From the NCBI GenBank assembly GCA_964637575.1, contig CAZWVU010000001.1:53009-117008 (forward strand): a stretch of 64,000 bases of DNA. The letters are read 5' to 3'. The notes beneath the pieces were generated by a model, which saw nothing but the letters and a program-made list of their open reading frames with translations, ran no database searches and was not told where the DNA came from. Of the stretch, positions 5,529 to 31,113 are shown piece by piece (position 1 is the stretch's first letter; each line of letters starts with the position of its first letter). Source of the stretch: an uncultured Candidatus Saccharibacteria bacterium. GTDB taxonomy: Bacteria > Patescibacteriota > Minisyncoccia > UBA6257 > WO2-44-18. The position numbers were made by a program, and so were the translations under genes.

Positions 5529-5780
5529 TCATTGGCTCTTTGTTATGTGTGGGATCCATGATTCAACAATATTCGCAATGGTTTCCAGGGAATTAAAATT
5601 TTCCGGCGTGAGCGCTTCCATGCGCGGCACAATCCCGAGACTGCTCTCGATAAATCCGATCAGCTTGATCATGGTAAAGGAATCCAGAACGCCCCTCTCA
5701 ATCAGATTGACGGAAGAGTCCTCGATCTTCTGTTGGGTTTCTTTTTCCAGAAACGCTTTAATGTTTTCTTGTATATTCAT
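5529..5780 (-). CDS. Small phosphopantetheine carrier protein (DltC/PCP-like)
   Basis: 83 aa; GVLDSFTMIKLIGFIESSLGIV with DSF Ser attachment motif. Immediately downstream of an adenylation enzyme. Confidence 0.6.
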   Translation of the reverse strand: MNIQENIKAFLEKETQQKIEDSSVNLIERGVLDSFTMIKLIGFIESSLGIVPRMEALTPENFNSLETIANIVESWIPHITKSQ

Positions 5781-8947: not shown

Positions 8948-9694
8948 TTATTTTACTTTATCGTAGCGGTCGGGTGTGCCGATGTCGTGCACGTAGTCGT
9001 TTACCTGAACCGGATAGCCGTAGTACGGTTCGGAGCGCTTCAGAATATCCGGCAAAAGCTGGTGATCGATCTCGTAATACCGGCCTTCCGGAATGGAGTC
9101 GAGTATTTTTTTATTGAATACGTAGATTCCCTGCATATCATAGAAATCACCCGCCGGCAGCTGCGCGTGCGGTTTCTGGTAGATAGCCTGAAACCGCATT
9201 GCGCCATCCAGCGCGGCCAGGTCGGAATCAAACGAATGTTCGGTCTTCGCGACGACATGAACTCCGAGGCAGGGCTGTTTGCTCCGGTAATATTCGATCA
9301 GCTTCCGGTAATCGACTTTGTTGAACACATCGCCGTAGACGAGAAGGAAGTCTTCCCCGAGTTGGTGTTCGAATTGTTTCAGCCCTCCGGCGGTGCCCAA
9401 GAGAACCGGTTCGTGGGAATAGGTTATCTTCACGCCAAATGCGGAACCGTCGCCGAAATACCCGGTGATCGATTCGGGGAGATAATGGAGATTGATGAAA
9501 ATTTCCCGGATTCCGTGGCGTTTCAGATGCTCGATCTGATGCCACAACAAGGGCCGGTCGCCGATGGGAGCCATCGCTTTCGGCACGGTGTTGGTCAGGG
9601 GGCGCAGCCGCGTCCCCAATCCGGCGCATAAGATAACTGCCTGCATGTGATACAAAGAATACAATAAAAAAGCTCCGATGTCTATCGGAGCCAT
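8948..9694 (-). CDS. Sugar-1-phosphate nucleotidyltransferase (HddC-like, D-glycero-D-manno-heptose 1-phosphate guanylyltransferase candidate)
   Basis: 248 aa; MQAVILCAGLGTRLRPLTNTVPKAMAPI NTP-transferase signature. Co-located with gmhA and the hddA-like kinase. Confidence 0.6.
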   Translation of the reverse strand: MAPIDIGAFLLYSLYHMQAVILCAGLGTRLRPLTNTVPKAMAPIGDRPLLWHQIEHLKRHGIREIFINLHYLPESITGYFGDGSAFGVKITYSHEPVLLGTAGGLKQFEHQLGEDFLLVYGDVFNKVDYRKLIEYYRSKQPCLGVHVVAKTEHSFDSDLAALDGAMRFQAIYQKPHAQLPAGDFYDMQGIYVFNKKILDSIPEGRYYEIDHQLLPDILKRSEPYYGYPVQVNDYVHDIGTPDRYDKVK

Positions 9695-10515
9695 TTTTCA
9701 AAATCGGTCAGGAACTGGCTGATTACTTCGTCGGTTTTGAAGTGCTGGACCATCCTGGAAAATTCGGGGAAAAACTTATACGGCACGGTCACAATGTGGA
9801 CGCCGGCAAGCATGGCGTCACGCATATCCCAGATCGTCCGGATTGAGCCGGCGATGATCTCGCAGCCGAACTTTTCCCGGTCAAACAATGCCCGGGTCCG
9901 GCCGGCCACGGAAACAGGATCGAAATCCTCTTCTCTGGCGGCGCCGCTTGCAAGGAGTTCCCGCGACTTCTGGAGCTGCGCACTGAGAAGCTCCTCGTCG
10001 CCTGGCTTTGCCTTGTTCGCCAGCGGGAAGCTGATCTTCTCCTGGATGACTTTCGGGTTTGCGTCGCGGATCCGGCCCCAGAAAAGACTGGCGTACTTCG
10101 CGCCGGCTTTCGCCGCCCACGCCGCCTGCGACACCGACATGCAGGCCGTGCAGTTCACGCTGATGCCGGACTCCGCAAAAGAACGGATGAGCGCAAGTTC
10201 GTTCCACCCAACCTGAATCTTGATGCTCAACGGATAGTCGAAGGTTTTTTTGAAATGGCGAACCTGTTCTCTGATCTGATCCGGCTCTTTCGCGAATACC
10301 TCAACGCTGAGATGGGGATACTTTCCCTGGATCCTGGAGTATTCCCGTTCGTAGTATTCCTGAAGCACGGCTACGATCTTGCCGATATGCTCCTCGAATT
10401 TGCCTTTCGGTTCTTTCGCGAGAAGCGACGGGTTGGTCGTCACGCCATCCACCCAGCCGGTTTCCAGCGCCTCCCTGATCTCGTCAAGGTTCGCGGTATC
10501 CACAAAGATTTTCAC
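9682..10515 (-). CDS. Transaldolase / fructose-6-phosphate aldolase family (sedoheptulose-7-P supply)
   Basis: MKIFVDTANLDEIREALETGWVDGVTTNPSL is a canonical TalC/FSA N-terminus. 277 aa with a C-terminal extension. Confidence 0.65.
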   Translation of the reverse strand: MKIFVDTANLDEIREALETGWVDGVTTNPSLLAKEPKGKFEEHIGKIVAVLQEYYEREYSRIQGKYPHLSVEVFAKEPDQIREQVRHFKKTFDYPLSIKIQVGWNELALIRSFAESGISVNCTACMSVSQAAWAAKAGAKYASLFWGRIRDANPKVIQEKISFPLANKAKPGDEELLSAQLQKSRELLASGAAREEDFDPVSVAGRTRALFDREKFGCEIIAGSIRTIWDMRDAMLAGVHIVTVPYKFFPEFSRMVQHFKTDEVISQFLTDFEKWLR

Positions 10516-10591: not shown

Positions 10592-11236
10592 TTACGAACA
10601 GGCGTTCAGGCCTTCGTAATATTCCCTGATCTTCTCCTTCAGTCCGAAGGTGATGAGGTGGCAGAGCAGGACATGAAAGGATTCCACCTGGGGTGTGTCC
10701 GACGCCGGGACGATAAGGCACACGTCGCAGATATCCTTAAACGCGCCGCCCTGATGCTTTTCGCCGACCAAGCCGATTGTCCGCCCGCCGTTATTCCTGG
10801 CATAGGTCAGCGCGCGCACCAGATTCTGGGAATAGACACCGGCTTTGTCCTGGCCGACGCCGCCGTTCACGCTGATCGCGATCACCACACCTCCCGGCTC
10901 CCAAAACGTCGCCAGCTGGGCATCGTAAACCCGGTCCCACTTCCAGTCATTCGTCAGGGCGCTGACCAGCGGGATATTGTCCACCAGTGCCGTGGCTTTG
11001 AGTCCCGCTTCGCCGGGATTCGCCACCACCGTCTTCACCAGATCGGCCGCGAGATGCGACGCCGTGGAAGCGGAGCCGCCATTGCCGACGATAAACACTG
11101 GCGACCGCTTCTGCCAGGCGGTGAAAAGAATTTCCATCGCCGCGGCGATTTCGTCCGCCCGGCTTTCCAGCATCGTGGCGATCAGCGAAGAATAGCCGAG
11201 AAAACTCTTGGCATAGGCGCGAAATTGCTCATGCAT
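10592..11236 (-). CDS. gmhA: D-sedoheptulose 7-phosphate isomerase (SIS domain)
   Basis: 214 aa; FIVGNGGSASTASHLAADL SIS motif, GmhA length. Confidence 0.7.
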   Translation of the reverse strand: MHEQFRAYAKSFLGYSSLIATMLESRADEIAAAMEILFTAWQKRSPVFIVGNGGSASTASHLAADLVKTVVANPGEAGLKATALVDNIPLVSALTNDWKWDRVYDAQLATFWEPGGVVIAISVNGGVGQDKAGVYSQNLVRALTYARNNGGRTIGLVGEKHQGGAFKDICDVCLIVPASDTPQVESFHVLLCHLITFGLKEKIREYYEGLNACS

Positions 11237-11304: not shown

Positions 11305-12093
11305 CTAGATTTTTTTGCCGCGGTCTTCCGGTTTGATACGCCGGTAGTTATAGATATCGGAAGAGGCGATCTCTTTCCGGTGCTTCGGGAATTCCCGGTA
11401 ATGATCCCAGACCGCGGAGAAAATTTTCCCGGTAAGGCCGGCGGAATCTTCAGAAACCAAAAACAGCACGAGGTCCGCGGCTTTTTGCGGGGAAACGCCT
11501 CCCTCCTTTTTTTGTTTCAGCGCCTGCTCATATTCTTTTCCCGCGGCCGCTCCCGCGCTGATGACTTCATCCAGCAACTGCGTGTTGACCGCGCCGGGCG
11601 CGATGGCGTTGACCGCGATGTTCCATTCTTTCAGCTCTTCGGCAACGGTTTCGGTAAGACGGGCGATCCCTCCCTTTGAGGACACGTATGCGGAAAAATT
11701 CGGGCGGGCTCCGTCGCCGCCGCCGACAAAATTAATGATCTTCCCGCCCCGCTCTTTCATAAGCGGCGCCATCGCCCGGATCGCGAGAAAGGTTCCGGTG
11801 AGATTGACGTCCAGCGTCTTCCGCCATTCGGCCGGATCAATGTCGGTGATTCTGCCGACAGGGCCGAGCACCGCCGCGGCGTTCACCAAGATATCCAGCT
11901 GTCCCCAGTCTTTTTTAATTCTTCCAGCCAGCGCCGCCACTGACCGTTCGTCCGCCACATCAACCGCAACCGTACCGCCGCTTCGGGAAGCAGTAAGAAC
12001 CTCGGCGCCCTGCGCCGCCAATGCCGCAGCGATTGCACTACCGATCCCGCCGTTGCCGCCGATCACCAGCGCTTTTTTTCCGGAAAGCGTCAT
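11305..12093 (-). CDS. Short-chain dehydrogenase/reductase (SDR)
   Basis: 262 aa; KALVIGGNGGIGSAIAAALAAQGAEV glycine-rich NAD(P) motif, SDR length. Confidence 0.7.
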   Translation of the reverse strand: MTLSGKKALVIGGNGGIGSAIAAALAAQGAEVLTASRSGGTVAVDVADERSVAALAGRIKKDWGQLDILVNAAAVLGPVGRITDIDPAEWRKTLDVNLTGTFLAIRAMAPLMKERGGKIINFVGGGDGARPNFSAYVSSKGGIARLTETVAEELKEWNIAVNAIAPGAVNTQLLDEVISAGAAAGKEYEQALKQKKEGGVSPQKAADLVLFLVSEDSAGLTGKIFSAVWDHYREFPKHRKEIASSDIYNYRRIKPEDRGKKI

Positions 12094-13211
12094 CGGGAAA
12101 TAATTTTTTTCTTTTTCAGATCGCTGAATGTCTTGTGAAGATACTTCTTCGCTTCGGGATACTGCCGCACCCAGGCCACATATTCGCGGACGTTGTCCGC
12201 GAATGTATATTCCGGTTTCCAGCCGAGCGCTTTCAACTTGGATACGTCCATCACCGAATGGCGCGGCGCTCCGACGCGATACTCGCCGGTAACTGGCCGG
12301 AACGGCACGCCGACTTCGCGGCAGACGGCTTTCGCGAGATCAATCACGCGCGTCGGCGTCCCACTCCCGATATTGAAGGCCTGGCCGTCCGCGCGCCGGT
12401 CTTCCAGCAAAATCAGGTGCGCGGCGGTCACGTCCTTCACATTCACGAAATCACGCGATTGCAGACCGTCCTCGTGAATACTGATCGGCTCGCCCGCGAG
12501 CGCCTGCACGGAAAAAGAACGGAGCGCGCCTGAGTAAAAATGCCGGAAAGACTGGCGCGGGCCGTGCGCGATCGAATAGCGTACGGCCACCGTCGGAATG
12601 CTGAGCAACGTTCCGAGATTGAACCCGGCTTTTTCCAGCGCCCATTTGGAAACTCCGTAGGGAATAGTTGGATTCAATTGGTCATCCTCTTCCTGCGGCA
12701 AAGGTTTGATGACTTCCCCGCCGGCCGGGCAGCGCATTTCCCATTGCCGCTGTTTGAGCTGGGTAAGCGGCCGCGGCGCCGGATAGACGATGCCGTGTTT
12801 TGGGCAGCGATATTTCCCCTCGCCATATACCGCCTGGGAGGAGGTAAGAATAATTTTTTTCACCGGCAGCTTCTGCTCGGCGATCAATTCGTAGATAAGC
12901 GCGGTACTTTTCGTGTTGGAATCGTAGTAGGTGCTGAAATCGAGATGATAATCCATGTACCCGGCGAGATGAAACACATATTCCACACCTTTCAGCGCTT
13001 TCGCCATATCCTTTTTATTTCGGACATCGCCTTTCTGGAATTCCGCGCGCGGATTGAACCAGGCGGGAAGTTTTCCGTTATGTGTCGGCGGAGCGAGATT
13101 ATCGAGTGCCCGCACCGCGTACCCGGCCTCAAGCAGGCCGTCCACCAGATGCGACCCGATAAATCCGGCGCCGCCGGTCACCAGCGCCAGACTCTTTTTA
13201 TTTCCGGCCAT
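12090..13211 (-). CDS. NAD-dependent sugar-nucleotide epimerase/dehydratase (extended SDR)
   Basis: 373 aa; ALVTGGAGFIGSHLVDGLLEAGYAVRALDNL; YxxxK region present. Confidence 0.7.
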   Translation of the reverse strand: MAGNKKSLALVTGGAGFIGSHLVDGLLEAGYAVRALDNLAPPTHNGKLPAWFNPRAEFQKGDVRNKKDMAKALKGVEYVFHLAGYMDYHLDFSTYYDSNTKSTALIYELIAEQKLPVKKIILTSSQAVYGEGKYRCPKHGIVYPAPRPLTQLKQRQWEMRCPAGGEVIKPLPQEEDDQLNPTIPYGVSKWALEKAGFNLGTLLSIPTVAVRYSIAHGPRQSFRHFYSGALRSFSVQALAGEPISIHEDGLQSRDFVNVKDVTAAHLILLEDRRADGQAFNIGSGTPTRVIDLAKAVCREVGVPFRPVTGEYRVGAPRHSVMDVSKLKALGWKPEYTFADNVREYVAWVRQYPEAKKYLHKTFSDLKKKKIISR

Positions 13212-14232
13212 AAATTGTTTCCACGATTTTCAATACTTCATACGCGTCCCGGACACCAGGCAGATTCTTCTCTCCCGACGTGAAAGCCTGGAGCTGCCGC
13301 GCGAATGATGTTTCTTTTTTTTCGTCCTTAAATATCATTATCTGCTCCGACGGCGGATTCGCAAAATCGGGATCGCGCTTCCCGATCGTTAACCGCTCCG
13401 GCCCGCGGTACCGCTGATCCAGCCCGTCAATCACCAGGTAGCCGTCGGTTCCGTAAATTTCAAAACAATGCGTCCAGTTCCAGTTCGTCCAGCTGACATG
13501 AATCGAGGCGACGTTTCCTTTCGCCGTGCGAAGCAAGGCGAATCCGTTGTCTTCGACGCCTCCTTTCCAGAACATATTTTCTGCATACCCTTCCACCTTC
13601 GGGAAGTCGCCGAGAAACCAGCGGGCGAGATCGATCATGTGCACTCCCTGGTCGATCAGCTCGCCGCCGCCGCTCATTTCTTTTTTAAAACGCCACTCCT
13701 TTTCATATCCCGGCTTGCCGCCGAACCCGTAGCGCGCCCGGACGAAAAGCAGATCGCCGATAGCACCCGCATCCGCCAGCTTTTTCGCTTCCATAAACGC
13801 GGCGTGGAAGCGGTGATTGAAGCCGATCATGTAGCGGCGTCCGGATTGTTTTTCGGCGGCGCTGATGCGCTCCATTTCTTCGGAGCTGATGGCGCCGGGC
13901 TTTTCCGAAAGTACATGCTTGCCGGCCGCGAGTGCTGCGACCGCCATCTCCGCGAGAAATGTGTGGGGGACGGCGAGAATGACCGCCTCTACTTCTTTAT
14001 CCGCGCACGCCTCCCGCCAATCCGCCACCGCGCGGCATCCGGGAACATCGGCGGCGCGCTGCTCCGCTTTTTTACGGTCAACATCGGCAATGACCCGCAA
14101 AGAATTTCCGGTTTCCCTGATCGCCGGAATCCACGAGGCGCTGATTCCTCCGGCGCCGATAAGTGCCAACTTCATTGCTTTATAGTATGTAAAAAACCCG
14201 CTGATTTCAATCAGCGGGTCAGTTTGATCCAT
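13198..14232 (-). CDS. Gfo/Idh/MocA family oxidoreductase (sugar/nucleotide-sugar dehydrogenase)
   Basis: 344 aa; MKLALIGAGGISASWIPAI N-terminal Rossmann and GFNHRFH-type region. Confidence 0.65.
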   Translation of the reverse strand: MDQTDPLIEISGFFTYYKAMKLALIGAGGISASWIPAIRETGNSLRVIADVDRKKAEQRAADVPGCRAVADWREACADKEVEAVILAVPHTFLAEMAVAALAAGKHVLSEKPGAISSEEMERISAAEKQSGRRYMIGFNHRFHAAFMEAKKLADAGAIGDLLFVRARYGFGGKPGYEKEWRFKKEMSGGGELIDQGVHMIDLARWFLGDFPKVEGYAENMFWKGGVEDNGFALLRTAKGNVASIHVSWTNWNWTHCFEIYGTDGYLVIDGLDQRYRGPERLTIGKRDPDFANPPSEQIMIFKDEKKETSFARQLQAFTSGEKNLPGVRDAYEVLKIVETIYGRK

Positions 14233-15125
14233 GTGAGCAAGTCCTGTGTCGGCTCCCAGTCGAACCAGTTCCTGGCGCGGGTGATATCCGCAAGCGTATC
14301 CGGAGGTTCTTCATAACGCGACGCCACGGATTCGGTTTCGCCTCCCACCGCCGCGGCGATCTCCGCGACGCTGTAATTTTTTCCGGCGCCGATGTTGATC
14401 ACCTCGCCGCGGCCAACGTGCGCTTCCTGATATGCCCGGAAGTTCGCCCGCGCGACATCCAGTACATACACGAAGTCGCGCCGCTGGCGGCCGTCGCCGA
14501 CGATCGTCAGCTTCTGGCCGTTTTTTTTCTGGAAGAGAAAACGTTCCGCCACGCCGGGAAAGGGAGCCCGCCCTTCCACGGCCGCGCGCGATCCATAGAC
14601 ATTGAAGTAACGCAGACAGACCGTTTCCAGCCGGCCCAGCTCGGCAAAAATCCGGCAGAGCACCTCGCCGCCGTATTTGGTGGCGGCGTAGGGATTGAGG
14701 AATTGCGGCGGAAAAATTTCCTTATGCGGCAGGGTCGGATTCTTTCCATACACCGAAGCCGATCCCGAGTAGATCACCCGACGCACGCCGGCGGCGAGCG
14801 CCGCAAGCAGGACGTTCTGGGTTCCGGCAACGTTGATCTGGAACGCGGAATCAAGATTGGCAATGCAGGCATCGATTCTGGCGTACGCGGCGCAATGAAA
14901 CACCGCCTCCGCTCCCGCGAACGCCGATTTCAAACTATCCGGATCGCGGACATCCGCCTGCCGCATTTCCACCCGAGGATTCCCTCGGAACACTTCAAGG
15001 TACGGGTTCGACTCGGCCAATACGCTGTCTACCAGCACCACGTCGGCCGGCGAAGCAATCAGCAGATACTGGCCGATGTTACTGCCGATAAATCCGGCTC
15101 CTCCGGTTACCACCAGTTTTTTCAT
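14211..15125 (-). CDS. NAD-dependent epimerase/dehydratase
   Basis: 304 aa; MKKLVVTGGAGFIGSNIGQYL. Confidence 0.7.
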   Translation of the reverse strand: MKKLVVTGGAGFIGSNIGQYLLIASPADVVLVDSVLAESNPYLEVFRGNPRVEMRQADVRDPDSLKSAFAGAEAVFHCAAYARIDACIANLDSAFQINVAGTQNVLLAALAAGVRRVIYSGSASVYGKNPTLPHKEIFPPQFLNPYAATKYGGEVLCRIFAELGRLETVCLRYFNVYGSRAAVEGRAPFPGVAERFLFQKKNGQKLTIVGDGRQRRDFVYVLDVARANFRAYQEAHVGRGEVINIGAGKNYSVAEIAAAVGGETESVASRYEEPPDTLADITRARNWFDWEPTQDLLTWIKLTR

Positions 15126-15704
15126 CTAGCACCTCCACCGGCGCCTGATAAATATTCCACTGGAAAGATGGGCAAAGATACCGGCCACGGTGGCGAGATC
15201 CTTGATCTCGCCATTCCGCACCATTTCCAGCACGCGCATCTGTCCCGCGCAATACGTCTGCACTCCCTGCACCTCGTCGCCCGCCAGTTTCTTTTTGGAA
15301 GGGCGGCAGTCAAAGGCCAGGAAAAGATGGCAGGGATTGTTCACGCGGTCGGAGAGCGGGAAAAAGTACTTGCCCACCGGCGCGATCCAGCCGGGCTCGA
15401 ACCCGGTCTCCTCGATCATCTCGCGGCAGGCCGCCTTCATCCAGGTCTCGCCTTTTTCGCGGCCGCCGGCCACCGACTCCAGTGTCAGTCCGGCCACCGG
15501 TTTGCACTGCCTGGTCAGAAGAAATGGATTCCCTGCGCCGGCCAGGCGGGCCGAAACCGACACGTATCCGTCGCTGGTGAGGCGCAGGAAGTTTTTGATC
15601 TCCCTGCCGTTGTCGAACTTCACGTCCACCACGTCAGCGGTTACCCATTTGTCGCGGTGTTTCACTTCCCGGACCGAAATTTCCCGGGTGGTCGCAATTT
15701 TCAC
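15126..15704 (-). CDS. NUDIX hydrolase (nucleotide-sugar / ADP-ribose pyrophosphatase-like)
   Basis: 192 aa; Nudix box GGREKGETWMKAACREMIEETGF. Confidence 0.65.
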   Translation of the reverse strand: MKIATTREISVREVKHRDKWVTADVVDVKFDNGREIKNFLRLTSDGYVSVSARLAGAGNPFLLTRQCKPVAGLTLESVAGGREKGETWMKAACREMIEETGFEPGWIAPVGKYFFPLSDRVNNPCHLFLAFDCRPSKKKLAGDEVQGVQTYCAGQMRVLEMVRNGEIKDLATVAGIFAHLSSGIFIRRRWRC

Positions 15705-15737
15705 AAATCCTCCTTCAATGTTCTAACGGCAAATTAC

Positions 15738-15766
15738 AATAAAAAAACCCCGACGGCAAGTCGGGG
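15738..15766 (-). terminator. Intrinsic terminator after the radical SAM gene
   Basis: Stem CCCCGAC/GTCGGGG (15748-15754 / 15760-15766), loop GGCAA, U-run on the minus strand from the plus A-run 15741-15747. Confidence 0.6.
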
Positions 15767-17299
15767 TTAGGATATGGGTTCGGCCGGATTCCAGCGGTTG
15801 CCGATGTTCTGCTTGAGCCGTTCGGCGACATAATCCCTGGGATTGACGGTCCGCCACGCCCACTCGCGCAATTCCAGCACGCGCTCGGCGGAAACGGCCG
15901 TATTCTTCATGACCGGCCGGTGCCAGTTCATCAGATCCGGATCGAAGTCCCGGGAAAGATGTCCGCCGGCGACGGCGATGTCATAGAGCGCGCTTCCGGG
16001 AAACGGGATCGGGATGAAGAAGGAGCAATATTTCGCTCCCGCATCCACCACCCGCTTCGCGTAGTCCACACTCTGCATGATTTCCGCTTCCGTCTCGTCC
16101 GGAAAACCGATCATCATGTTCACGGGACAGGTGATGCCGATCTTGGCCGCGATGCCCACCATTTCAACGATGTCCATCGTCGGCAGATGAAGCTTGCCCG
16201 TCGCATACCGGTCCAGCACCCGCTGGGAACCGGATTCCACAGGGAACGTGATCTGGTCAAATCCGGACGCGCGCAGAAGTTCCAAGTAGTCGCGGTCGGT
16301 TTCCAGCTTTCCGCTGTGTTTATTGCGGACAAGAAAATGAACAAGGTTCACGCCGTTGACGTCGGCGATCTTCAGACCGGCGCTGAGCAGGCGGCCGAAG
16401 ATATCCTTCACCCGCGACTTCTTGGCGAGAAGGCTGTCGTCTTCGAAATAGACCTTTTGCACGCCGAGATCCTTGAGGATCTGGATCTCGCGCATCACCC
16501 GGTCCACCGACTTAAGCCGGAGATTGCCGATATCTTCCTTGAACTCCCGCTCTTTGGAAATGTGGCAGTAGAGGCACTTGAACGGACAGCCGCGCGAGGT
16601 CATGATCGCCGCGTACATCAGACTTTTGTCGAGCACGGTGTCACCGTGCGGCGACGCGATGCGCGCGTACTTTTCCAGCGGCAGTTTGTGCCACGCCGGC
16701 ACCGGCAGTTCGTCCAGATCCATGCTGGTATCTTCGGGAAGGACCGGATTCCGCGCGAGAATTCCGTCCCGCCAGAAAAGCATGCCACTCACTCCGCCGA
16801 TGTCCTGCCCGCGGCTCCACAGCCGGAGCAGTTTCACGATGATCTTTTCCCCTTCAGTGGTGCAGATCGCGTCCACCAGTCCGGTCCGGAAAAACCGTTC
16901 CGGAATATTGCGGGCGTTCACGCCGCCCGCGATTACCAGAATGTCCGGACTGACCTCTTTCGCCGCCTGCGCCACTTCCAGCGCCATCCGCGTCTGCGGC
17001 GTAAAGTTGGAATGGATGGCCACCACGTTATACCCGCGCTTCGCGATCAGCTCCCGGATCATTCCGGACGTCATCCCGATGCGGGTCAGTCCGTTGGGTT
17101 GGCGCACCGCTTTGTAAAAGGTGTCTTCCAGTGTTTCCGCGGGGGAACCCACCGAAGCGTCCACCACATCATTGGCGATGCCTGCCCGATCCAGCGCCGC
17201 CGCGAGATACAGCGGGCCGAGCGAACCGTCCGGCCTTGCCGCCTCCGTCGGATTGAGCTGATTGGGCGGATACATAATAAGAACGTTGGGAGTCCGCAT
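15767..17299 (-). CDS. Cobalamin-binding (class B) radical SAM enzyme
   Basis: 510 aa; N-terminal B12-binding-like Rossmann region, then the radical SAM cluster motif CPFKCLYC (Cx3Cx2C). Confidence 0.65.
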   Translation of the reverse strand: MRTPNVLIMYPPNQLNPTEAARPDGSLGPLYLAAALDRAGIANDVVDASVGSPAETLEDTFYKAVRQPNGLTRIGMTSGMIRELIAKRGYNVVAIHSNFTPQTRMALEVAQAAKEVSPDILVIAGGVNARNIPERFFRTGLVDAICTTEGEKIIVKLLRLWSRGQDIGGVSGMLFWRDGILARNPVLPEDTSMDLDELPVPAWHKLPLEKYARIASPHGDTVLDKSLMYAAIMTSRGCPFKCLYCHISKEREFKEDIGNLRLKSVDRVMREIQILKDLGVQKVYFEDDSLLAKKSRVKDIFGRLLSAGLKIADVNGVNLVHFLVRNKHSGKLETDRDYLELLRASGFDQITFPVESGSQRVLDRYATGKLHLPTMDIVEMVGIAAKIGITCPVNMMIGFPDETEAEIMQSVDYAKRVVDAGAKYCSFFIPIPFPGSALYDIAVAGGHLSRDFDPDLMNWHRPVMKNTAVSAERVLELREWAWRTVNPRDYVAERLKQNIGNRWNPAEPIS

Positions 17300-17337
17300 A
17301 TCACCTCCGTGTATTTCTCAATGTGCGGAATTACTGT

Positions 17338-17376
17338 ACAAGAAAAAAAGAAAACTGGCAATTACATGCCAGTTTT
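17338..17376 (-). terminator. Intrinsic terminator overlapping the stop of the GHMP kinase gene
   Basis: 10-bp palindrome AAAACTGGCA / TGCCAGTTTT (17351-17360 / 17367-17376), loop ATTACA containing the stop codon, followed on the minus strand by CUUUUUUUCUUG. Confidence 0.5.
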
Positions 17377-18360
17377 GGGGGAAAAATCCGGATCAATCGC
17401 CACACTGCCCTGATAGTCGATGGCAAAATGGACGCGCCTCAGTCCGCGCGCGGCCAGCGCGAACGCCATGCGCGCCCGGTCCGTCGGATCGGGACAATAG
17501 AACATGAGGTAGCCGCCGCCACCCGCGCCGATCAGCTTGCCGCCGAGCGCGCCGCACTCCTTCGCGGTTTCGCAGGCGGCGTCAAAATCCGCCGTACTGA
17601 TTTTGGAAGACATCTTCTGCTTAATCCGCCAGTGGGCGTCAAGCAGGCGCCCGAACTGATCAAGGTCGCCTTCTTCAAACGCCCGGAGCACCGAACGGCC
17701 GATTTCCTTCGTCCGGTGTTTCAGCTCAAGCACCGCCGCCGCATCCTGCTCTTTGAGAATGTCTTTGCTCGCGCCGGGGCGCTTGATGCCGGTGTAGAAA
17801 AACAGGGTGTTGCTCAAAAAGCGCTCCGTGGTTTCGCGCGCGATCGCGGGCTTCCGCACTGCGACCCCGCCGTCACGTCCGATCTCGAGCACGGTAAATC
17901 CGCCGAACGCCGCCAGATACGGATCCTGTTTGCCTTCGTGTCCGCGGATGCGCTCGGTAATTTCAAACGATTTTTCCGCGAGAAACTCCGGCGTCTTCCG
18001 CTCCCCTTTAAGGGCGAAAAGAGTATTCAACAGGCCCAGTGCGTAACTTCCGGAGGAACCAAGCCCGGTGCCGGCCGGCGAGTCGGCGTTAAAGGTCACG
18101 CTCACCGCCCGGTCGATTCCGGCGATGCGCAGCGCCTCGCGGCCGATTTCGTGGTGAAGGGAATTCACCGAATCCACGACTTCGCAGTCCGTGTAATGGA
18201 ACTGGATGCGGTCGTCCAGCGCCAGCCGCTTGGCGAAAATGTGGACGTAGGACTGAATGGCCACGCCGAAGATGAATCCGCCGAACTTTTCGTAATACGA
18301 AGGGAGGTCGGTCGAGCCGCCTCCCAGAGGAATCCGGAACGGCGTTCTCGAAATGATCAC
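17362..18360 (-). CDS. GHMP sugar kinase (HddA-like D-glycero-D-manno-heptose 7-phosphate kinase candidate)
   Basis: 332 aa; MIISRTPFRIPLGGGSTDLPSYY (PxGSGLGSS-type GHMP motifs, GTGLGSSGSYALG). Confidence 0.65.
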   Translation of the reverse strand: MIISRTPFRIPLGGGSTDLPSYYEKFGGFIFGVAIQSYVHIFAKRLALDDRIQFHYTDCEVVDSVNSLHHEIGREALRIAGIDRAVSVTFNADSPAGTGLGSSGSYALGLLNTLFALKGERKTPEFLAEKSFEITERIRGHEGKQDPYLAAFGGFTVLEIGRDGGVAVRKPAIARETTERFLSNTLFFYTGIKRPGASKDILKEQDAAAVLELKHRTKEIGRSVLRAFEEGDLDQFGRLLDAHWRIKQKMSSKISTADFDAACETAKECGALGGKLIGAGGGGYLMFYCPDPTDRARMAFALAARGLRRVHFAIDYQGSVAIDPDFSPKTGM

Positions 18361-18409
18361 AACACTCTCTCTTTCTCAATGTAAAAAAACTATCCCAATA
18401 GTAGCCGAA

Positions 18410-19210
18410 CTATTTCTTCTTGGCAATAAAATAAAATCCGGCGGTGATCGTTTCCGCGGACCCGTACCGAGCAAACACGTAATCAAGCAGCTTGAGCGGC
18501 GAAGTAATAATCACCATCAGAATCCAGATCAGGTCTTTCAGGATTTTAATGTTGAAGGAAAGTGCCAGCGCCACCCACTCCTGCATCACCGACAGAAAGG
18601 CGCAGGTCGGGCCGACGTCCGGTTTCAGCTCCAGAATTTCAAACGCGGAGAATAATTCCCGGAGACCGTCGGCCGTCCACCGGTAATAGTCTTTGGGCGA
18701 AGGGTGGTACGGAGTGATGAAGTTGGTGGAAAGATAGAGATGGCCGCCGGGCTTCAGCACGCGGCGCATTTCTTCCGCCACCCGCACGGGATCCTTCATA
18801 TGCTCGAGCACCCAGGCAAACACAATCCCGTCCACCGAATTATCGGCGAAGGGCAGGTCATGGGCGTCCGCCAGAATATCCACGTAGTGCCACGGATGGA
18901 TGTCGACATTCACGATGTCCGGATGAATCCGCCGGTTGCCCGATCCGACTTCCACCACCAGCCCTCCCTTGGGAGCGTAATGAAAAATCGATTTGGGCGG
19001 TTTCCCCAGGAAGAGCGCGGGTGCGACGAAATAAAAAATAAATGAATACAGCCAGGGAATTTTTTTGAGGGCGGTTTTCAGCCGGTTAATGAAACCGGTG
19101 TGGAGATCGCCCCGCATTTCCTCGAATCCGGAATCGGAAATAAAGAGGGGCTTGCCGTCCACCAGCCGTTCCGGATTTTTTTTAAAACGGACCGCGTCAA
19201 GTCTGTTCAT
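18410..19210 (-). CDS. Class I SAM-dependent methyltransferase (type 11)
   Basis: 266 aa; VVEVGSGNRRIHPDIVNVDI motif I, DLPFADNSVDGIVFAWVLEHMKDP motif II/III. Confidence 0.65.
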   Translation of the reverse strand: MNRLDAVRFKKNPERLVDGKPLFISDSGFEEMRGDLHTGFINRLKTALKKIPWLYSFIFYFVAPALFLGKPPKSIFHYAPKGGLVVEVGSGNRRIHPDIVNVDIHPWHYVDILADAHDLPFADNSVDGIVFAWVLEHMKDPVRVAEEMRRVLKPGGHLYLSTNFITPYHPSPKDYYRWTADGLRELFSAFEILELKPDVGPTCAFLSVMQEWVALALSFNIKILKDLIWILMVIITSPLKLLDYVFARYGSAETITAGFYFIAKKK

Positions 19211-21045
19211 TTTTTAATTCTGTAAATTTCCACGGACGGATTTTTGTACACTAATTCTAGGTTCGGATTGTTCCCGAAGTCAACCTGGCTGAATGAACGC
19301 TCCAGCGGGCCCACGTAGACATAGTCAGCCGCAAGATCACTCCAGCGGACATCGGTCTGGCGGTAGCGCGCGAGGAGCTCCTGGATTTTTTCTTCGGGAA
19401 TCGTGGTGATGCCCAGTTTGTAGTAATAGTAGAGCTGATAGAGATGGAGCCGGTCATCCGCCAGATTGCTCGTCGCGTAGACTTTGTCGCAATCCTGGCT
19501 GCAGGGCAGCCCCTTCCCGCCTCGCAATCGCAATTCCAAAATTTTTTCCGAAACGCCGAATATCTTATTGGTTTCCAGATAGCGTTTTTCTATTTCAAAA
19601 TTGGATAACGGCGACAGGCCTCCGATCGGCATCGTCGGCCGCGCGGAACTGAAGGCCATTTCATATACGCCGGTGATGAATGAAGGCGAGACAACCCGGG
19701 GCTCTTTCAGATTGGCGTCCATCCACTGCCAGCTTGCCAGCAGATTTTCCGGCAAACGGTATTCGGAAAGAATCTGCGGGGATGGATGGATAAACCCGGC
19801 GGCGTTTACCAGTTTTTTACCGACCAGAAGCGCGATCATGAGGATCAGTCCGGCAGTAATGAATTTTTTAAGCGCCGGTTTTTTCGCGGCGGCCATTCCC
19901 GCAAGTTCGTACACCAGATCGAACGCCGCCACAAACAGCGGCATATCGATGACGCGCGGCCAGTGATCCGAATGGGGAACAAAGCCCAGCACCACCTGAA
20001 CGTTCCAGACCACCACTGCCGCCGCAAGCAACGACCAGTAGAATACCGCCTTGGATTTCTTTTCCTGAACCCGCCAGAACACGAAATAAATGAGCACCGC
20101 GGCGGCGAGATATAAAAGATAATACGGCCAGGCCGCCCAGCGGAACTGCGACCCCACCTCCAGGCCAAGCCGGTTGATATAGTCTTTGTATCCGAGCTGG
20201 CCGTTGAGCTTCACCTGGCCGAGGAAGTAGGGAATGCTCACGAGCAACACTGTCCCCATCAGCAGGATGAAATTTTTTATCAACGGACGGTTGCCGCGGA
20301 AAAACGCCAGGGCGCCCACAAACATGAAACCGCCGACTGTCACCCAGTAACTCCAGATGTGGAAATACGTGTAGAAAAGCAGGCCGGAAACAAGGCCGGC
20401 AATAATCGCCGTTGAAGGTTTCGGACGCTTCCAGAATATCAGCACCGTCGCGATTGCCGGCAGATACACCAGGCTGGTCAGAAGCGGATAATCCACCCGG
20501 GCAAAAAACAAAAGTGGCAGAAACGTTTTCACCCCGGGGTAGAAATTATTGAGGACAATCGCGGCAAACCGGTCGGGACTGAAGAACGCCTGCGAAAGCA
20601 CGAGCGCCATCGGCGTCAGCGTCCCGACAAACGCCAGGAACAGCGACCAGAGGCGGTTCCGGTCAAATATCAGCCACCCGATCCAGAAAAACAGCAGAAA
20701 GATCCCCGCGGAAAAAACCGCGAGCGCGGCCAGATACGCCGGCGTAATCTGATGAAATAAAAAGACAAAGAGAGAAAGAAGGAGTGGCGGAATTGGCGGA
20801 TAGATATTGGCAAGCGTGTGATCGAAAAACAGATCGGCCGGCGGAAAATGGCCGTCATAAATTTCCCGGGAAAACTGGAAATACGCATCGCCGCCATCAT
20901 CCAGAGTATTAAATTGCGACAATACAAATGTCCGGCCCGAACCGTCGACTGCGCGCTTGATAAGAAGCTGGGGGGCGAGATAAAGGCTGCCCACCAGCAG
21001 GGCGGAGCACGCCACGATGATCCAAAAATACCGGGAACGGCTCAT
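19207..21045 (-). CDS. Polytopic membrane protein, GT-C-like glycosyltransferase candidate (ArnT/PMT-like) with C-terminal soluble domain
   Basis: 612 aa; about 12 hydrophobic segments over 420 aa, then a roughly 180-aa hydrophilic C-terminus. Translationally coupled to the GT2 gene. Confidence 0.4.
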   Translation of the reverse strand: MSRSRYFWIIVACSALLVGSLYLAPQLLIKRAVDGSGRTFVLSQFNTLDDGGDAYFQFSREIYDGHFPPADLFFDHTLANIYPPIPPLLLSLFVFLFHQITPAYLAALAVFSAGIFLLFFWIGWLIFDRNRLWSLFLAFVGTLTPMALVLSQAFFSPDRFAAIVLNNFYPGVKTFLPLLFFARVDYPLLTSLVYLPAIATVLIFWKRPKPSTAIIAGLVSGLLFYTYFHIWSYWVTVGGFMFVGALAFFRGNRPLIKNFILLMGTVLLVSIPYFLGQVKLNGQLGYKDYINRLGLEVGSQFRWAAWPYYLLYLAAAVLIYFVFWRVQEKKSKAVFYWSLLAAAVVVWNVQVVLGFVPHSDHWPRVIDMPLFVAAFDLVYELAGMAAAKKPALKKFITAGLILMIALLVGKKLVNAAGFIHPSPQILSEYRLPENLLASWQWMDANLKEPRVVSPSFITGVYEMAFSSARPTMPIGGLSPLSNFEIEKRYLETNKIFGVSEKILELRLRGGKGLPCSQDCDKVYATSNLADDRLHLYQLYYYYKLGITTIPEEKIQELLARYRQTDVRWSDLAADYVYVGPLERSFSQVDFGNNPNLELVYKNPSVEIYRIKK

Positions 21046-21935
21046 TGTCTGATAATTTCTTTAATCTGATAGGGACGGAGATCGCGGGAGTCGTAATAAT
21101 TTCTCCATAAAAGTTCGGCGATGATTCCCAGCAAAGGGAACAGGGAAATCAGAATCAGGAAAATCCCGATCAGCACCGGCAGGATCATATTCAACCACAC
21201 TGCGAGCGCCAGAGAAGCCGCCGCCAGGGCCGCCACTCCCAATCCCAGTGCGCTGAAAAAAAGCATCGGCCGGGTGCGCGGCGCCAGAACCCGCACCATC
21301 AGCAAATCAGCGATCGCTTTGACGCCGGCGAGAAGATGATGTTTGGAAAGTCCCGATTTCCGTTCGTGGTGGGTTACTTCCACTTCGGTAATCCGGGCGC
21401 CGCGGAGAAACAGCTGGGCCGCCAGAAATACATGCTGAACTCCGGCAAGGTGTATCCCGTCCAGCCAGGATTTCCGGTAGACCTTCAGGGCGCAGGCATG
21501 GTCGTGCAGGTTCAATCCGCTGATTTTTCTTGTCAGCCAGTTGGCCATCCGCGAATGGAAACGCCGGCCGAAACTGTCGTGCCGGTCCCGGCGCCATCCG
21601 GCCACCACGTCATATCCCTCGCGCGCTTTCGCCATCATCGCGGGAATGTCGCGCGGATCGTTCTGGAGATCGCCGTCCATAATCACCACCCACTCTCCCT
21701 TGGCCGCCTTGATGCCGGCATCGAGTGCCAGTGTCTGACCGAAATTCTTCGGCAGGACGACAATGGTAACCGGGTGAAGCGTCTTCAAAATTTCCAGCGT
21801 GGCGTCGGTGGAACCGTTATCCACGACAATAATTTCGTACGGCTCCCCCATCGCGTCCAGGGTTTCCTTATTCAGGCGGTGCAATTCCTTCACATTGCCC
21901 TCTTCGTTATAGGTGGGAAAAATTACAGAAATCAT
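21042..21935 (-). CDS. GT2 polyprenyl-phosphate glycosyltransferase (DPM1/ArnC/GtrB-like) with C-terminal TM helices
   Basis: 297 aa; MISVIFPTYNEEGNV...IIVVDNGSTDAT...VVIMDGDLQNDP (DxD), two C-terminal TM segments. Confidence 0.7.
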   Translation of the reverse strand: MISVIFPTYNEEGNVKELHRLNKETLDAMGEPYEIIVVDNGSTDATLEILKTLHPVTIVVLPKNFGQTLALDAGIKAAKGEWVVIMDGDLQNDPRDIPAMMAKAREGYDVVAGWRRDRHDSFGRRFHSRMANWLTRKISGLNLHDHACALKVYRKSWLDGIHLAGVQHVFLAAQLFLRGARITEVEVTHHERKSGLSKHHLLAGVKAIADLLMVRVLAPRTRPMLFFSALGLGVAALAAASLALAVWLNMILPVLIGIFLILISLFPLLGIIAELLWRNYYDSRDLRPYQIKEIIRQ

Positions 21936-25503: not shown

Positions 25504-25518
25504 AAAGTTACTACCATG

Positions 25519-31064: not shown

Positions 31065-31113
31065 GAAAAATTTTAAAGTTTAAATTTGAAATTTAAAATA
31101 AATGATTAAATTC

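What the first reader, a model, noticed from the sequence alone, without database searches (positions are those of the whole stretch)
15767..17299. B12-binding radical SAM enzyme inside a GDP-heptose-type nucleotide-sugar operon
A 510-aa protein has an N-terminal cobalamin-binding-like Rossmann region followed by a CPFKCLYC radical SAM cluster motif. It lies between the HddA-like kinase and NUDIX/epimerase genes and is followed by its own terminator. Class B radical SAM enzymes in sugar pathways (GenK, Fom3-type) perform C-methylation or unusual rearrangements on unactivated carbons. Here the likely substrate is a GDP-heptose or related nucleotide sugar. That implies a C-methylated or otherwise radical-modified heptose in the surface glycan.
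Basis: partly seen in the sequence, partly recalled or inferred. Interest (0 to 1): 0.6.

Follow-up and report, generated by a model that had tools for sequence, protein, structure and literature searches.

The report
Uncharacterised B12 radical-SAM sugar-tailoring enzyme
A real, highly conserved gene for a vitamin-B12-type radical enzyme of unknown reaction travels with genes that build a seven-carbon-type sugar, load it on a membrane lipid and attach it to the cell surface of ultra-small bacteria and archaea, which points to a modified envelope sugar nobody has described.

Summary
The 510-aa ORF carries CPFKCLYC and passes the Pfam cut-offs for Radical_SAM and B12-binding. It lies between an HddA-like GHMP kinase and NUDIX/SDR genes, and hairpin+T-run elements bracket it. 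Its model (pLDDT 86) matches class B radical SAM enzymes, and the N-terminal domain alone best matches corrinoid-binding domains.

No curated family contains it: the best hit, Sden_1168, scores 152 bits against a 575-bit cut-off. It belongs to a tight unnamed clade of 55-81% identity, mostly Patescibacteria plus some DPANN archaea.

In 32 related loci the clade co-occurs with an ArnC-like GT2 (30), GHMP kinase (28), transaldolase (27), GmhA-like isomerase (26), sugar-1-P nucleotidyltransferase (25) and HAD phosphatase (22). The usual order is NTP-transferase, rSAM, GT2. The sister clade lacks these sugar genes. A conserved 612-aa neighbour with no Pfam domain has a GT-C fold.

In 34 kinase-anchored control loci the sugar-activation genes occur without the rSAM. 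The rSAM is therefore an accessory tailoring enzyme tied to the lipid-phosphate/GT-C route.

C-methylation of the heptose-type sugar is the most likely reaction but is unproven. An AprD4-like dehydration or an HpnJ/OxsB-like rearrangement is not excluded. The heptose identity is also only inferred.

The parts
15767..17299 (-). B12-binding/radical SAM protein, 510 aa (the finding)
   Evidence: ORF and translation. Pfam PF04055 64 bits and PF02310 38.5 bits, both above cut-off. AF2 model pLDDT 86.4, pTM 0.87. Fold matches to MgmA, TsrM, CysS, TokK, OxsB and AprD4.
16730..17299 (-). N-terminal Rossmann-type cobalamin-binding-like domain (about aa 1-190)
16568..16591 (-). CPFKCLYC = CxxxCxxC radical SAM [4Fe-4S] motif (aa 237-244)
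   Evidence: Translation. C237, C241 and C244 are the only invariant Cys in the family alignment.
15746..15768 (-). Terminator-like hairpin + T7 starting at the rSAM stop codon
   Evidence: A positional equivalent is present in L002.
17333..17376 (-). Hairpin + T-run over the kinase stop codon, overlapping a promoter-like site upstream of the rSAM start
   Evidence: Positional equivalents, including an 11/12 promoter match, are present in L002.
17362..18360 (-). GHMP sugar kinase, HddA-like
   Evidence: Pfam GHMP_kinases_N/C. NCBIfam best hit HddA, 115.5 bits, cut-off 600. Present in 28 of 32 clade-A loci.
18410..19210 (-). Class I SAM methyltransferase (Methyltransf_11)
   Evidence: Present in 14 of 32 clade-A loci and 1 of 34 control loci.
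19207..21045 (-). 612-aa polytopic membrane protein with a GT-C glycosyltransferase fold and no Pfam family
   Evidence: No Pfam hit. About 10 TM segments plus a soluble C-terminal domain. AF2 model pLDDT 90.1. All 24 significant Foldseek hits are GT-C enzymes. Natural GT2 fusions P0162 and P0164.
21042..21935 (-). GT2, ArnC-like polyprenyl-phosphate glycosyltransferase
   Evidence: Pfam Glycos_transf_2 117 bits. NCBIfam best hit ArnC, 152 bits, below its cut-off. Present in 30 of 32 clade-A loci and immediately downstream of the rSAM in 13.
15126..15704 (-). NUDIX hydrolase
   Evidence: Pfam NUDIX. Weak NudE and NudK hits. Adjacent to the rSAM in the window, L008 and L014 variants, which lack a HAD phosphatase.
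14211..15125 (-). Extended SDR NDP-sugar epimerase/dehydratase
13198..14232 (-). GFO/IDH/MocA sugar oxidoreductase
   Evidence: A GFO, DAO or GFO-DAO fusion is present in 19 of 32 clade-A loci.
12090..13211 (-). Extended SDR epimerase/dehydratase
11305..12093 (-). Classical short-chain dehydrogenase
10592..11236 (-). SIS-domain ketose-phosphate isomerase, GmhA-like
   Evidence: Pfam SIS_2. NCBIfam GmhA 83.5 bits, cut-off 209. Present in 26 of 32 clade-A loci and 0 of 19 clade-B loci.
9682..10515 (-). Transaldolase/fructose-6-phosphate aldolase family (TalC/Fsa type)
   Evidence: Present in 27 of 32 clade-A loci and 0 of 19 clade-B loci.
8948..9694 (-). Sugar-1-phosphate nucleotidyltransferase (ManC-, MurU- or HddC-like)
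   Evidence: Present in 25 of 32 clade-A loci and immediately upstream of the rSAM in 15.

Best explanation
The gene encodes a class B (cobalamin-binding domain + radical SAM) enzyme. It belongs to a tight, uncharacterised orthologous clade that acts as an accessory tailoring enzyme for a heptose-type sugar on its way to the cell surface.

Proposed route:
1. A transaldolase and a GmhA-like isomerase supply an aldose 7-phosphate.
2. The HddA-like GHMP kinase makes the 1-phosphate. A HAD phosphatase acts in most genomes; the window has none and has a NUDIX gene instead.
3. The nucleotidyltransferase makes the NDP-sugar.
4. The ArnC-like GT2 moves the sugar onto polyprenyl phosphate.
5. The 612-aa GT-C-fold enzyme transfers it to an extracytoplasmic acceptor.

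The radical SAM enzyme acts on the sugar either as the NDP-sugar or as the polyprenyl-phosphate sugar. It most likely installs a C-methyl group on an unactivated carbon by the standard class B mechanism: the 5'-deoxyadenosyl radical abstracts a hydrogen, methyl is transferred from methylcobalamin, and a second SAM re-methylates the cobalamin.

Shown here: the gene, its motifs, its fold, the conserved and clade-specific gene neighbourhood, and the GT-C fold of the partner.
Inferred: cobalamin binding, the identity of the sugar, the substrate stage and the reaction type.

My confidence in the general part (a sugar-tailoring class-B-type rSAM of this module) is about 0.8. For C-methylation specifically it is about 0.4-0.45.
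For: Architecture:
- Both Pfam domains are above their cut-offs, and all 120 listed homologues carry both.
- The CxxxCxxC cysteines are invariant and are the only invariant cysteines.
- The AF2 model has pLDDT 86.4.
- Foldseek hits: MgmA 5.5e-20, then TsrM, OxsB, CysS, TokK.
- The profile search aligns the N-terminal domain with the Cbl domains of OxsB, TokK, CysS and TsrM. The target's GGVNARN aligns with TokK GGPHVPD and CysS GGPQVMN.

Context in clade A (n=32 loci): GT2 30, GHMP 28, TAL 27, SIS 26, NTP-transferase 25, HAD 22. In clade B (n=19) the same genes score 7, 1, 0, 0, 0, 0. Fisher p ranges from 1e-9 to 2e-5.

Gene order: the upstream neighbour is the NTP-transferase in 15 of 32 loci and the downstream neighbour is GT2 in 13 of 32.

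Reverse control: 34 GHMP-anchored loci have SIS 25, HAD 21, NTP-transferase 27 and TAL 19. They have 0 clade-A rSAMs, 0 DAO, 1 MT11, 0 GT-C-like proteins and only 7 weak GT2 hits.

Partner proteins: the 612-aa protein has a GT-C fold, and natural GT2-GT-C fusions exist.

Precedents: GenD1 is a cobalamin-dependent rSAM that C-methylates a sugar after GenD2 (oxidoreductase), GenS2 (transaminase) and GenN (N-methyltransferase) have acted (PMC4340712). Related loci carry GFO/DAO, DegT and MT11 genes beside the rSAM. Every functionally characterised group of B12-rSAMs includes C-methyltransferases (PMC12931638).

Sugar chemistry also surrounds sister-clade members: GT2-YdjC-GT4-rSAM in Yanofskybacteria, a macrolide-type BGC with sugar O-methyltransferases, a GT1 and an adjacent GFO in Micromonospora, and NDP-sugar SDRs in Actinoplanes.
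Against: - There is no biochemical evidence of any kind. No curated family contains the protein: Sden_1168 scores 151.6 against a cut-off of 575, HpnJ 91.7 against 577.6, BchE 80.6 against 481.
- The physiological function of SD_1168 is itself unknown (PMC9204698).
- Methylases cannot be told from non-methylases by sequence or structure (PMC12931638).
- Most carriers are Patescibacteria and DPANN archaea, which are not known to make cobalamin (own knowledge). No cobalamin riboswitch or B12 gene is in the window.
- GmhA-, HddA- and HddC-like assignments are all below their equivalog cut-offs, and the window lacks a GmhB-type phosphatase.
- The loci are phylogenetically related, so the Fisher p-values overstate independence.
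Confidence: 0.45

Rival explanations
1. A cobalamin-dependent but non-methylating radical rearrangement of the sugar, in the manner of HpnJ (proposed six- to five-membered ring contraction of a lipid-linked glucosamine) or OxsB (oxidative ring contraction). It would act on the polyprenyl-phosphate-linked heptose and yield a ring-contracted, branched or carbocyclic unit.
For: HpnJ is the second-best NCBIfam hit (91.7 bits) and OxsB is the best PDB profile hit (46 bits, aa 72-396). The most conserved neighbour is a lipid-phosphate GT2 (30 of 32 loci). The sister clade shows GT2-YdjC-GT4-rSAM, which resembles the hopanoid HpnI (GT2) / HpnK (YdjC deacetylase) / HpnJ trio; the HpnJ role is from PMC9204698 and the HpnI/K roles are from my own knowledge. 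Non-methylating members lie in the same large sequence cluster as methylases.
Against: Scores to HpnJ and OxsB are far below family level. Most characterised class B enzymes are methyltransferases. The GT2 here is ArnC-like, with no HpnI or HpnB hit. No YdjC gene is in the window or in the clade-A core.
Confidence: 0.2
2. An AprD4-like, cobalamin-independent radical SAM 1,2-diol dehydratase. It would remove a hydroxyl from the heptose, and a neighbouring NAD(P)-dependent oxidoreductase (GFO, DAO or SDR) would reduce the resulting ketone, giving a deoxy-heptose. The N-terminal Rossmann domain would be a vestigial B12 fold.
Against: Sequence similarity to AprD4 is confined to the radical SAM barrel: aa 230-468 against PDB, and NCBIfam AprD4 38 bits over aa 230-471 against a cut-off of 500. 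The N-terminal domain, by contrast, aligns with genuine Cbl domains, passes the Pfam B12-binding cut-off and keeps the SxL...GG spacing. Strong conservation of the N-terminal blocks NFTPQT, GGVNAR and TEGE argues for a functional cofactor or ligand site.
Confidence: 0.15
3. The substrate is not the sugar. The enzyme would modify something else made or used nearby, such as the polyprenyl carrier, an acceptor polymer or protein, or a phosphinate/phosphonate group as the 'P-methyltransferase' label of the nearest NCBIfam family suggests.
For: The best curated hit is the Sden_1168 'P-methyltransferase' family. A PEP_mutase/ICL-superfamily gene lies at 3352-4356. HpnP and HpnR show that class B enzymes can methylate lipids.
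Against: The 3352-4356 protein scores best as methylisocitrate or isocitrate lyase (157 bits), while PEP mutase scores only 79.8 against a cut-off of 319.55. It is 11 kb away and occurs in 0 of 32 clade-A loci. No other phosphonate genes were seen. The conserved partners are all sugar-pathway enzymes. The native role of SD_1168 is unknown.
Confidence: 0.07

Closest known systems
GenK, GenD1 (gentamicin) and MoeK5 (moenomycin): cobalamin-dependent radical SAM sugar C-methyltransferases
   Same: They share the two-domain class B architecture and act on unactivated sugar carbons. GenD1 works alongside an oxidoreductase, a transaminase and a SAM methyltransferase (PMC4340712), and the same enzyme classes accompany this clade.
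   Different: Those enzymes tailor antibiotic pseudo-oligosaccharides in actinomycetes. This one sits in a cell-envelope glycan module (NDP-heptose-type pathway, then polyprenyl-P, then GT-C) in Patescibacteria and DPANN.
Sden_1168 (SD_1168) family, NCBIfam NF038361
   Same: It is the best curated sequence match, aligned almost full length (aa 2-478; 151.6 bits, E 2.8e-44).
   Different: The score is about a quarter of the family cut-off (575). SD_1168 methylates a phosphinate analogue in vitro, but its physiological substrate is unknown (PMC9204698). There is no phosphonate context here.
HpnJ (hopanoid cyclitol-ether formation) and OxsB (oxetanocin)
   Same: Both are class B enzymes that rearrange a sugar ring rather than methylating it. 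HpnJ acts on a lipid-linked sugar made by a GT2. HpnJ is the second-best NCBIfam hit and OxsB is the best PDB profile hit.
   Different: The scores are far below family level, the pathway and carrier lipid differ, and the clade-A core has no YdjC deacetylase.
AprD4 (apramycin C3' deoxygenation)
   Same: It ties for the best structural match and also acts on a sugar with a reductase partner.
   Different: AprD4 binds no cobalamin. Its sequence similarity to the target is restricted to the radical SAM barrel.
[quoted passage not shown]
   Same: The surrounding genes are the same enzyme types: isomerase, GHMP kinase, HAD phosphatase and nucleotidyltransferase. As in lincomycin, a dedicated transaldolase is also present.
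   Different: All scores are below the equivalog cut-offs and the window lacks the phosphatase. To my knowledge, and in the literature searches done here, neither known pathway contains a radical SAM enzyme.
ArnC/ArnT and Gtr-type three-component glycan modification
   Same: An ArnC-like GT2 plus a GT-C-fold transferase, with GtrA-like proteins in some related loci, implies a polyprenyl-phosphate sugar intermediate and extracytoplasmic transfer.
   Different: The GT-C protein belongs to no Pfam family. A radical SAM enzyme is not part of the known Arn or Gtr systems.

Membership tests
Radical SAM superfamily | CxxxCxxC motif ligating the [4Fe-4S] cluster | tested here: met
   C237-x3-C241-x2-C244 is present and invariant in 16 family members.
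Radical SAM superfamily | Pfam PF04055 above the gathering score, and a partial TIM-barrel fold | tested here: met
   64 bits against 29.5. The model aligns with many radical SAM structures.
Class B (cobalamin-dependent) radical SAM enzymes | N-terminal Rossmann-type B12-binding domain preceding the radical SAM domain | tested here: met
Class B (cobalamin-dependent) radical SAM enzymes | Actual binding of, and dependence on, cobalamin | not testable with these tools
   AprD4 shows that the fold can exist without the cofactor. This needs purified protein.
Class B C-methyltransferases (GenK, GenD1, Fom3, TokK type) | Methyl transfer from methylcobalamin to a substrate radical, giving SAH and 5'-dA as co-products | not testable with these tools
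   No sequence or structural marker separates methylases from non-methylases (PMC12931638).
Sden_1168 family P-methyltransferase (NF038361) | Whole-protein score at or above the curated cut-off of 575 bits | tested here: not met
   151.6 bits.
HpnJ (TIGR03471) | Score at or above 577.6 bits, and a hopanoid gene context | tested here: not met
   91.7 bits. No hopanoid genes are in the window.
BchE anaerobic cyclase (TIGR02026), the name some databases give to homologues | Score at or above 481 bits | tested here: not met
   80.6 bits. The JGI 'BchE' and 'YgiQ' names are therefore over-annotations.
AprD4 radical SAM diol-dehydratase (NF033070) | Score at or above 500 bits over the full length | tested here: not met
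   38.1 bits, covering aa 230-471 only. The fold similarity is nevertheless high.
SPASM/twitch radical SAM sugar enzymes (BtrN or HygY type) | Extra conserved cysteines for an auxiliary Fe-S cluster | tested here: not met
   Only the three CxxxCxxC cysteines are invariant.
GDP-D-glycero-D-manno-heptose pathway (context) | GmhA, HddA and HddC equivalogs | tested here: inconclusive
   These are the best or near-best hits but fall below their cut-offs: GmhA 83.5 against 209, HddA 115.5 against 600, HddC 91 against 300.
GDP-D-glycero-D-manno-heptose pathway (context) | GmhB-type HAD phosphatase | tested here: not met
   None lies in the window's gene train. One is present in 22 of 32 related loci.
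GT-C glycosyltransferases (the 612-aa neighbour) | Polytopic N-terminal membrane domain plus a soluble C-terminal domain, fold match to known GT-C enzymes, and a conserved acidic residue in the first external loop | tested here: met
   About 10 TM segments. The model has pLDDT 90.1. All 24 significant hits are GT-C enzymes. D49 is nearly invariant.

The most novel reading that the evidence does not exclude
The clade catalyses a reaction not yet known for radical SAM enzymes in primary metabolism: a cobalamin-assisted carbon-skeleton change (ring contraction, carbocyclisation or branching) or C-alkylation of a polyprenyl-phosphate-linked heptose or octose. This would create a new monosaccharide class that a previously unrecognised GT-C family installs on the envelopes of CPR bacteria and DPANN archaea. 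It would also make the envelopes of these organisms, which are not known to make cobalamin, depend on scavenged B12.
Probability: 0.2. Interest if true: 0.8.

Novelty: new variant of a known kind. Interest (0 to 1): 0.55.

Why it matters
Class B radical SAM enzymes number more than 200,000, yet only a few dozen are characterised, almost all from antibiotic, cofactor or pigment pathways (PMC12931638). This clade would be a class B enzyme embedded in a cell-envelope glycan pathway built on the HddA/HddC-type heptose route. The held literature yielded no precedent for that.

It is most common in Patescibacteria and DPANN, whose surface chemistry is essentially unknown and whose lifestyle is thought to depend on cell-cell contact. 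A B12-dependent step there would tie envelope biogenesis to a scavenged cofactor.

The module is compact, with about ten genes of predictable roles, so both the reaction and the product sugar are directly testable by heterologous reconstitution. The work also turned up a GT-C-fold family with no Pfam model, which is useful in its own right.

Tried and rejected
- Phosphonate or P-methylation reading, prompted by the Sden_1168 label and the PEP_mutase-superfamily gene at 3352-4356: rejected. That gene scores as an isocitrate/methylisocitrate lyase, not PEP mutase. It is absent from related loci.
- Twitch/SPASM sugar epimerase or dehydrogenase (HygY or BtrN type): rejected, because there are no auxiliary-cluster cysteines.
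- Database names 'BchE' and 'YgiQ': rejected on NCBIfam scores.
- Cobalamin riboswitch or other RNA element near the gene: none. There were 0 Rfam hits in the whole window, and the intergenic gaps are only about 60 nt.
- Octose instead of heptose (lincomycin LmbR logic): could not be resolved. The control set shows the transaldolase belongs to the sugar-activation module whether or not the rSAM is present (19 of 34 loci), so it says nothing about the rSAM reaction.
- AFDB fold search for named structural neighbours: the library was unavailable.
- Phylogeny against GenK, Fom3, MoeK5 and HpnJ sequences: not possible, because those sequences were not retrievable with these tools. NCBIfam scores and PDB profile hits served as proxies.
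- Literature searches for radical SAM + heptose/HddA/HddC, B12-rSAM + nucleotide sugar/capsule, and CPR + radical SAM + heptose found nothing relevant.
- Fisher tests are reported but are inflated by shared ancestry of the loci.
Full report
OBSERVATION

The ORF at 15767..17299 is real but lies on the minus strand: 510 aa, ATG at 17299, TAA at 15769-15767. The + strand reading of these coordinates is meaningless.

The protein contains C237-PFK-C241-LY-C244. It passes the Pfam gathering cut-offs for Radical_SAM (64 bits against 29.5, aa 234-413) and B12-binding (38.5 against 32.1, aa 69-156).

It is flanked upstream by a GHMP kinase whose best NCBIfam match is HddA. Downstream are a NUDIX hydrolase and an SDR epimerase.

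The 'own terminator' is CCCCGAC-TTGCC-GTCGGGG followed by T7, starting at the stop codon. A second hairpin+T-run encloses the kinase stop codon. It is followed by a promoter-like site and a GGAGG ribosome-binding site before the ATG. The 74%-identical orthologue in a Parcubacteria MAG has hairpins and an 11/12 promoter match at the same positions but with different sequences. The gene therefore looks like an insulated transcription unit inside the cluster.

An identical protein and more than 120 cluster representatives at 55-81% identity exist in public data.

WHAT THE PROTEIN IS

The AlphaFold model is confident (pLDDT 86.4, pTM 0.87).

- Foldseek against the PDB returns the class B enzymes MgmA/QCMT, TsrM, OxsB, CysS and TokK (E 5e-20 to 1e-16), and also AprD4.

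At sequence level a family profile aligns the N-terminal domain with the cobalamin domains of OxsB (aa 72-396), TokK (99-250), CysS (117-276) and TsrM (118-414). AprD4 and MgmA align only from about aa 224 onward. The family conserves NFTPQT, GGVNAR and TEGE blocks. It also keeps an S-x-F...(28)...G-G spacing like the SxL...GG signature of cobalamin domains (the signature is from my own knowledge). Only the three radical SAM cysteines are invariant, so there is no auxiliary cluster.

No curated family contains the protein. Sden_1168 scores 151.6 bits (cut-off 575), HpnJ 91.7 (577.6), BchE 80.6 (481), PhpK 77.5 (600) and AprD4 38.1 (500). The physiological function of SD_1168 is itself unknown (PMC9204698).

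In a search of 1.84 billion 50%-identity representatives, the target's clade collapses to one representative (842 bits). About twenty sister representatives follow at 400-585 bits, and then the broad class B continuum (3,458 representatives at E<=1e-30).

CONTEXT, TESTED IN BOTH DIRECTIONS

Eighty loci were fetched from species-representative genomes. They split by identity into clade A (>=49% identity to the target; 32 loci with adequate flanks) and clade B (36-49%; 19 loci). Unbiased ORF clustering gave these counts (consistent):

| Neighbour | Clade A (n=32) | Clade B (n=19) |
|---|---|---|
| GT2 | 30 | 7 |
| GHMP kinase | 28 | 1 |
| Transaldolase | 27 | 0 |
| SIS isomerase | 26 | 0 |
| Sugar-1-P nucleotidyltransferase | 25 | 0 |
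| HAD phosphatase | 22 | 0 |

Other recurrent clade-A partners are a Methyltransf_11 enzyme (14 loci), DegT aminotransferases (12), GFO, DAO or GFO-DAO oxidoreductases (19) and membrane proteins of about 560-615 aa (at least 20).

The commonest order is NTP-transferase, rSAM, GT2, (GFO-)DAO, HAD, GHMP, SIS, TAL, MT11, membrane protein. The NTP-transferase is immediately upstream in 15 of 32 loci and the GT2 immediately downstream in 13 of 32.

The window shares a rearranged variant with two other genomes: GT2, membrane protein, MT11, GHMP, rSAM, NUDIX, SDR, GFO, SDR, SDR, SIS, TAL, NTP-transferase. This variant has no HAD phosphatase.

Carriers are mainly Patescibacteria of many lineages. MAGs labelled Woesearchaeota, Pelagibacteraceae, Nitrospirae, Deltaproteobacteria, Elusimicrobiota and Dehalococcoidales also carry it. 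MAG labels should be treated with caution.

For the reverse test, 80 metagenome loci were anchored on the GHMP kinase. Of the 34 that are at least 9 kb long, SIS (25), HAD (21), NTP-transferase (27) and transaldolase (19) are common. None has a clade-A rSAM, none has the DAO or the membrane protein, one has the MT11, and GT2 hits are few and weak (7 loci, 21-32% identity).

The sugar-activation module therefore exists widely on its own. The rSAM belongs to a second sub-module together with the ArnC-like GT2, the oxidoreductase, the methyltransferase and the membrane protein.

THE MEMBRANE PARTNER

The 612-aa protein at 19207..21045 has no Pfam hit. It has about ten hydrophobic segments followed by a 190-aa soluble domain. 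Its 44 homologues are all 'hypothetical', and two of them are fused to a GT2 domain.

Its model (pLDDT 90.1) matches only GT-C glycosyltransferases at E<=1e-3: STT3, PglB, AglB, DPY19, AftA, ArnT and AftD. An acidic residue in the first external loop (D49) is nearly invariant.

The GT2 is ArnC-like (152 bits). Together these imply that the sugar passes through a polyprenyl-phosphate intermediate and is transferred outside the membrane.

MECHANISM

The best-supported reading is an accessory, cobalamin-type radical SAM tailoring step on the heptose-type sugar. It would act either on the NDP-sugar, as the gene order NTP-transferase, rSAM, GT2 suggests, or on the lipid-linked sugar, as the co-variation with GT2 and GT-C suggests.

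C-methylation is the default for three reasons. First, every characterised group of B12-rSAMs includes C-methyltransferases. Second, GenK, GenD1 and MoeK5 show that sugars are substrates. Third, the gentamicin set GenD2/GenS2/GenN/GenD1 is mirrored by the GFO/DAO, DegT, MT11 and rSAM genes in related loci.

The reaction type is nevertheless inference, not demonstration. The same review states that no feature separates methylases from non-methylases. Two rivals remain open:

- An HpnJ/OxsB-like rearrangement. It is supported by the hit order and by the GT2-YdjC-GT4-rSAM arrangement in the sister clade.
- An AprD4-like cobalamin-independent dehydration paired with a reductase. It is supported by the tie in structural similarity and by the frequent oxidoreductase partner. 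It is weakened because the N-terminal domain shows no sequence similarity to AprD4.

The sugar is 'heptose-type' only by nearest family. GmhA-, HddA- and HddC-like scores are all below their equivalog cut-offs. The same five enzyme types with a transaldolase make GDP-octose in lincomycin biosynthesis (PMC4351081).

COMPARISON AND NOVELTY

The protein is a member of the radical SAM superfamily. By architecture and fold it belongs to the class B group, although cofactor binding is untestable here. It is not a member of any curated class B family.

It works most like the sugar C-methylases GenK, GenD1 and MoeK5, but in a different biological setting. The setting is a cell-envelope glycan module combining an HddA/HddC-type pathway, an ArnC-like GT2 and a new GT-C family, mostly in CPR and DPANN organisms.

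Four literature searches found no description of a radical SAM enzyme in this pathway or in these organisms' glycan clusters. The 2026 review's list of known B12-rSAMs contains nothing comparable.

VERDICT

The architecture and the sugar-pathway link are solid. C-methylation, GDP-heptose and the nucleotide-sugar stage are plausible but unproven.
- This is a new variant of a known kind of enzyme. It is of moderate-to-good interest because the clade is large, tightly conserved, uncharacterised and directly testable.

Noticed in passing
window 19207-21045 (-): A 612-aa membrane protein with no Pfam or NCBIfam family is predicted with high confidence (pLDDT 90) to have a GT-C glycosyltransferase fold. 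All of its homologues are annotated 'hypothetical', and two (P0162, P0164) are natural fusions with a GT2 domain. It looks like an undescribed GT-C family.
   Followed up: yes
window 23253-26469 (-) and 30282-32325 (-): An ArnA-like formyltransferase, a polysaccharide deacetylase (ArnD-like?) and the ArnC-like GT2 lie in the same gene train as SHMT and FolD. This suggests an Arn-like N-formyl-aminosugar branch with its own one-carbon supply. No aminotransferase was seen in the window.
   Followed up: partly
window about 5.7-44.3 kb: About 40 kb of almost uninterrupted minus-strand surface-glycan genes. It holds three TagF-like Glyphos_transf genes, two CTP_transf_3 cytidylyltransferases (one PseF-like), a UDP-GlcNAc 2-epimerase, a Wzx-type flippase, two giant double-GT4 proteins (716 and 794 aa) and several methyltransferases. 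That would be a large share of the genome if, as the synteny suggests, the organism is a small-genome Patescibacterium.
   Followed up: partly
window 5758-7589 (-) and 4424-5473 (-): An AMP-binding enzyme (497 aa), a 4'-phosphopantetheinyl transferase (ACPS, about 7248-7589; from the gene calls of the identical contig L001) and a small 83-aa ORF follow the last TagF-like gene, with a GNAT-like protein nearby. This may be a carrier-protein-dependent acylation (D-alanylation-like) of the polymer.
   Followed up: no
window 15126-15704 (-), and the absence of a HAD gene: The window variant of the module, shared with L008 and L014, has a NUDIX hydrolase right after the rSAM and no GmhB-type HAD phosphatase. 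Most other loci have the HAD, and some have both. How the 7-phosphate is removed here, and what the NUDIX enzyme does, is unexplained.
   Followed up: partly
L059, L062, L064, L067, L071 (Yanofskybacteria, sister clade B): There is a conserved order: membrane protein (no Pfam), GT2, YdjC-family deacetylase, GT4, B12-rSAM. It parallels the hopanoid HpnI/HpnK/HpnJ trio, but in organisms and contexts without hopanoid genes.
   Followed up: partly
L055 (Micromonospora sp. NBS 11-29) and L058 (Actinoplanes sp. NPDC049599): These are 41%-identical homologues in cultured actinomycetes. In Micromonospora the gene lies inside a type I PKS cluster next to a GFO oxidoreductase, TylF- and MycE-type sugar O-methyltransferases, an EryCIII-like glycosyltransferase and a P450. 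In Actinoplanes it precedes NDP-sugar SDRs. Both are tractable entry points for biochemistry of the wider family.
   Followed up: partly
L003/L013 3015-4742 and L007/L025 18505-20004: Several related loci carry a second, different B12-binding radical SAM gene (575 aa and 499 aa) in the same glycan cluster.
   Followed up: no
window 3352-4356 (-): A PEP_mutase/ICL-superfamily protein scores best as methylisocitrate or isocitrate lyase (157 bits) and is below the cut-off for every equivalog, including PEP mutase. It is flanked by PanE and two acyl-CoA-ligase-like genes, and its role is unclear.
   Followed up: partly
window 15920-17413 (+), 14418-15770 (+), 17323-18384 (+): Long antisense 'shadow' ORFs (497, 450 and 353 aa) overlap the real minus-strand genes in this 59% GC stretch. 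They can mislead strand assignment and naive ORF pickers: my own longest-ORF filter dropped the kinase for this reason.
   Followed up: yes
window 46124-49885 (-): A 1253-aa protein whose only Pfam hit is an N-terminal peptidoglycan-binding domain (PG_binding_1). The rest is unannotated.
   Followed up: no
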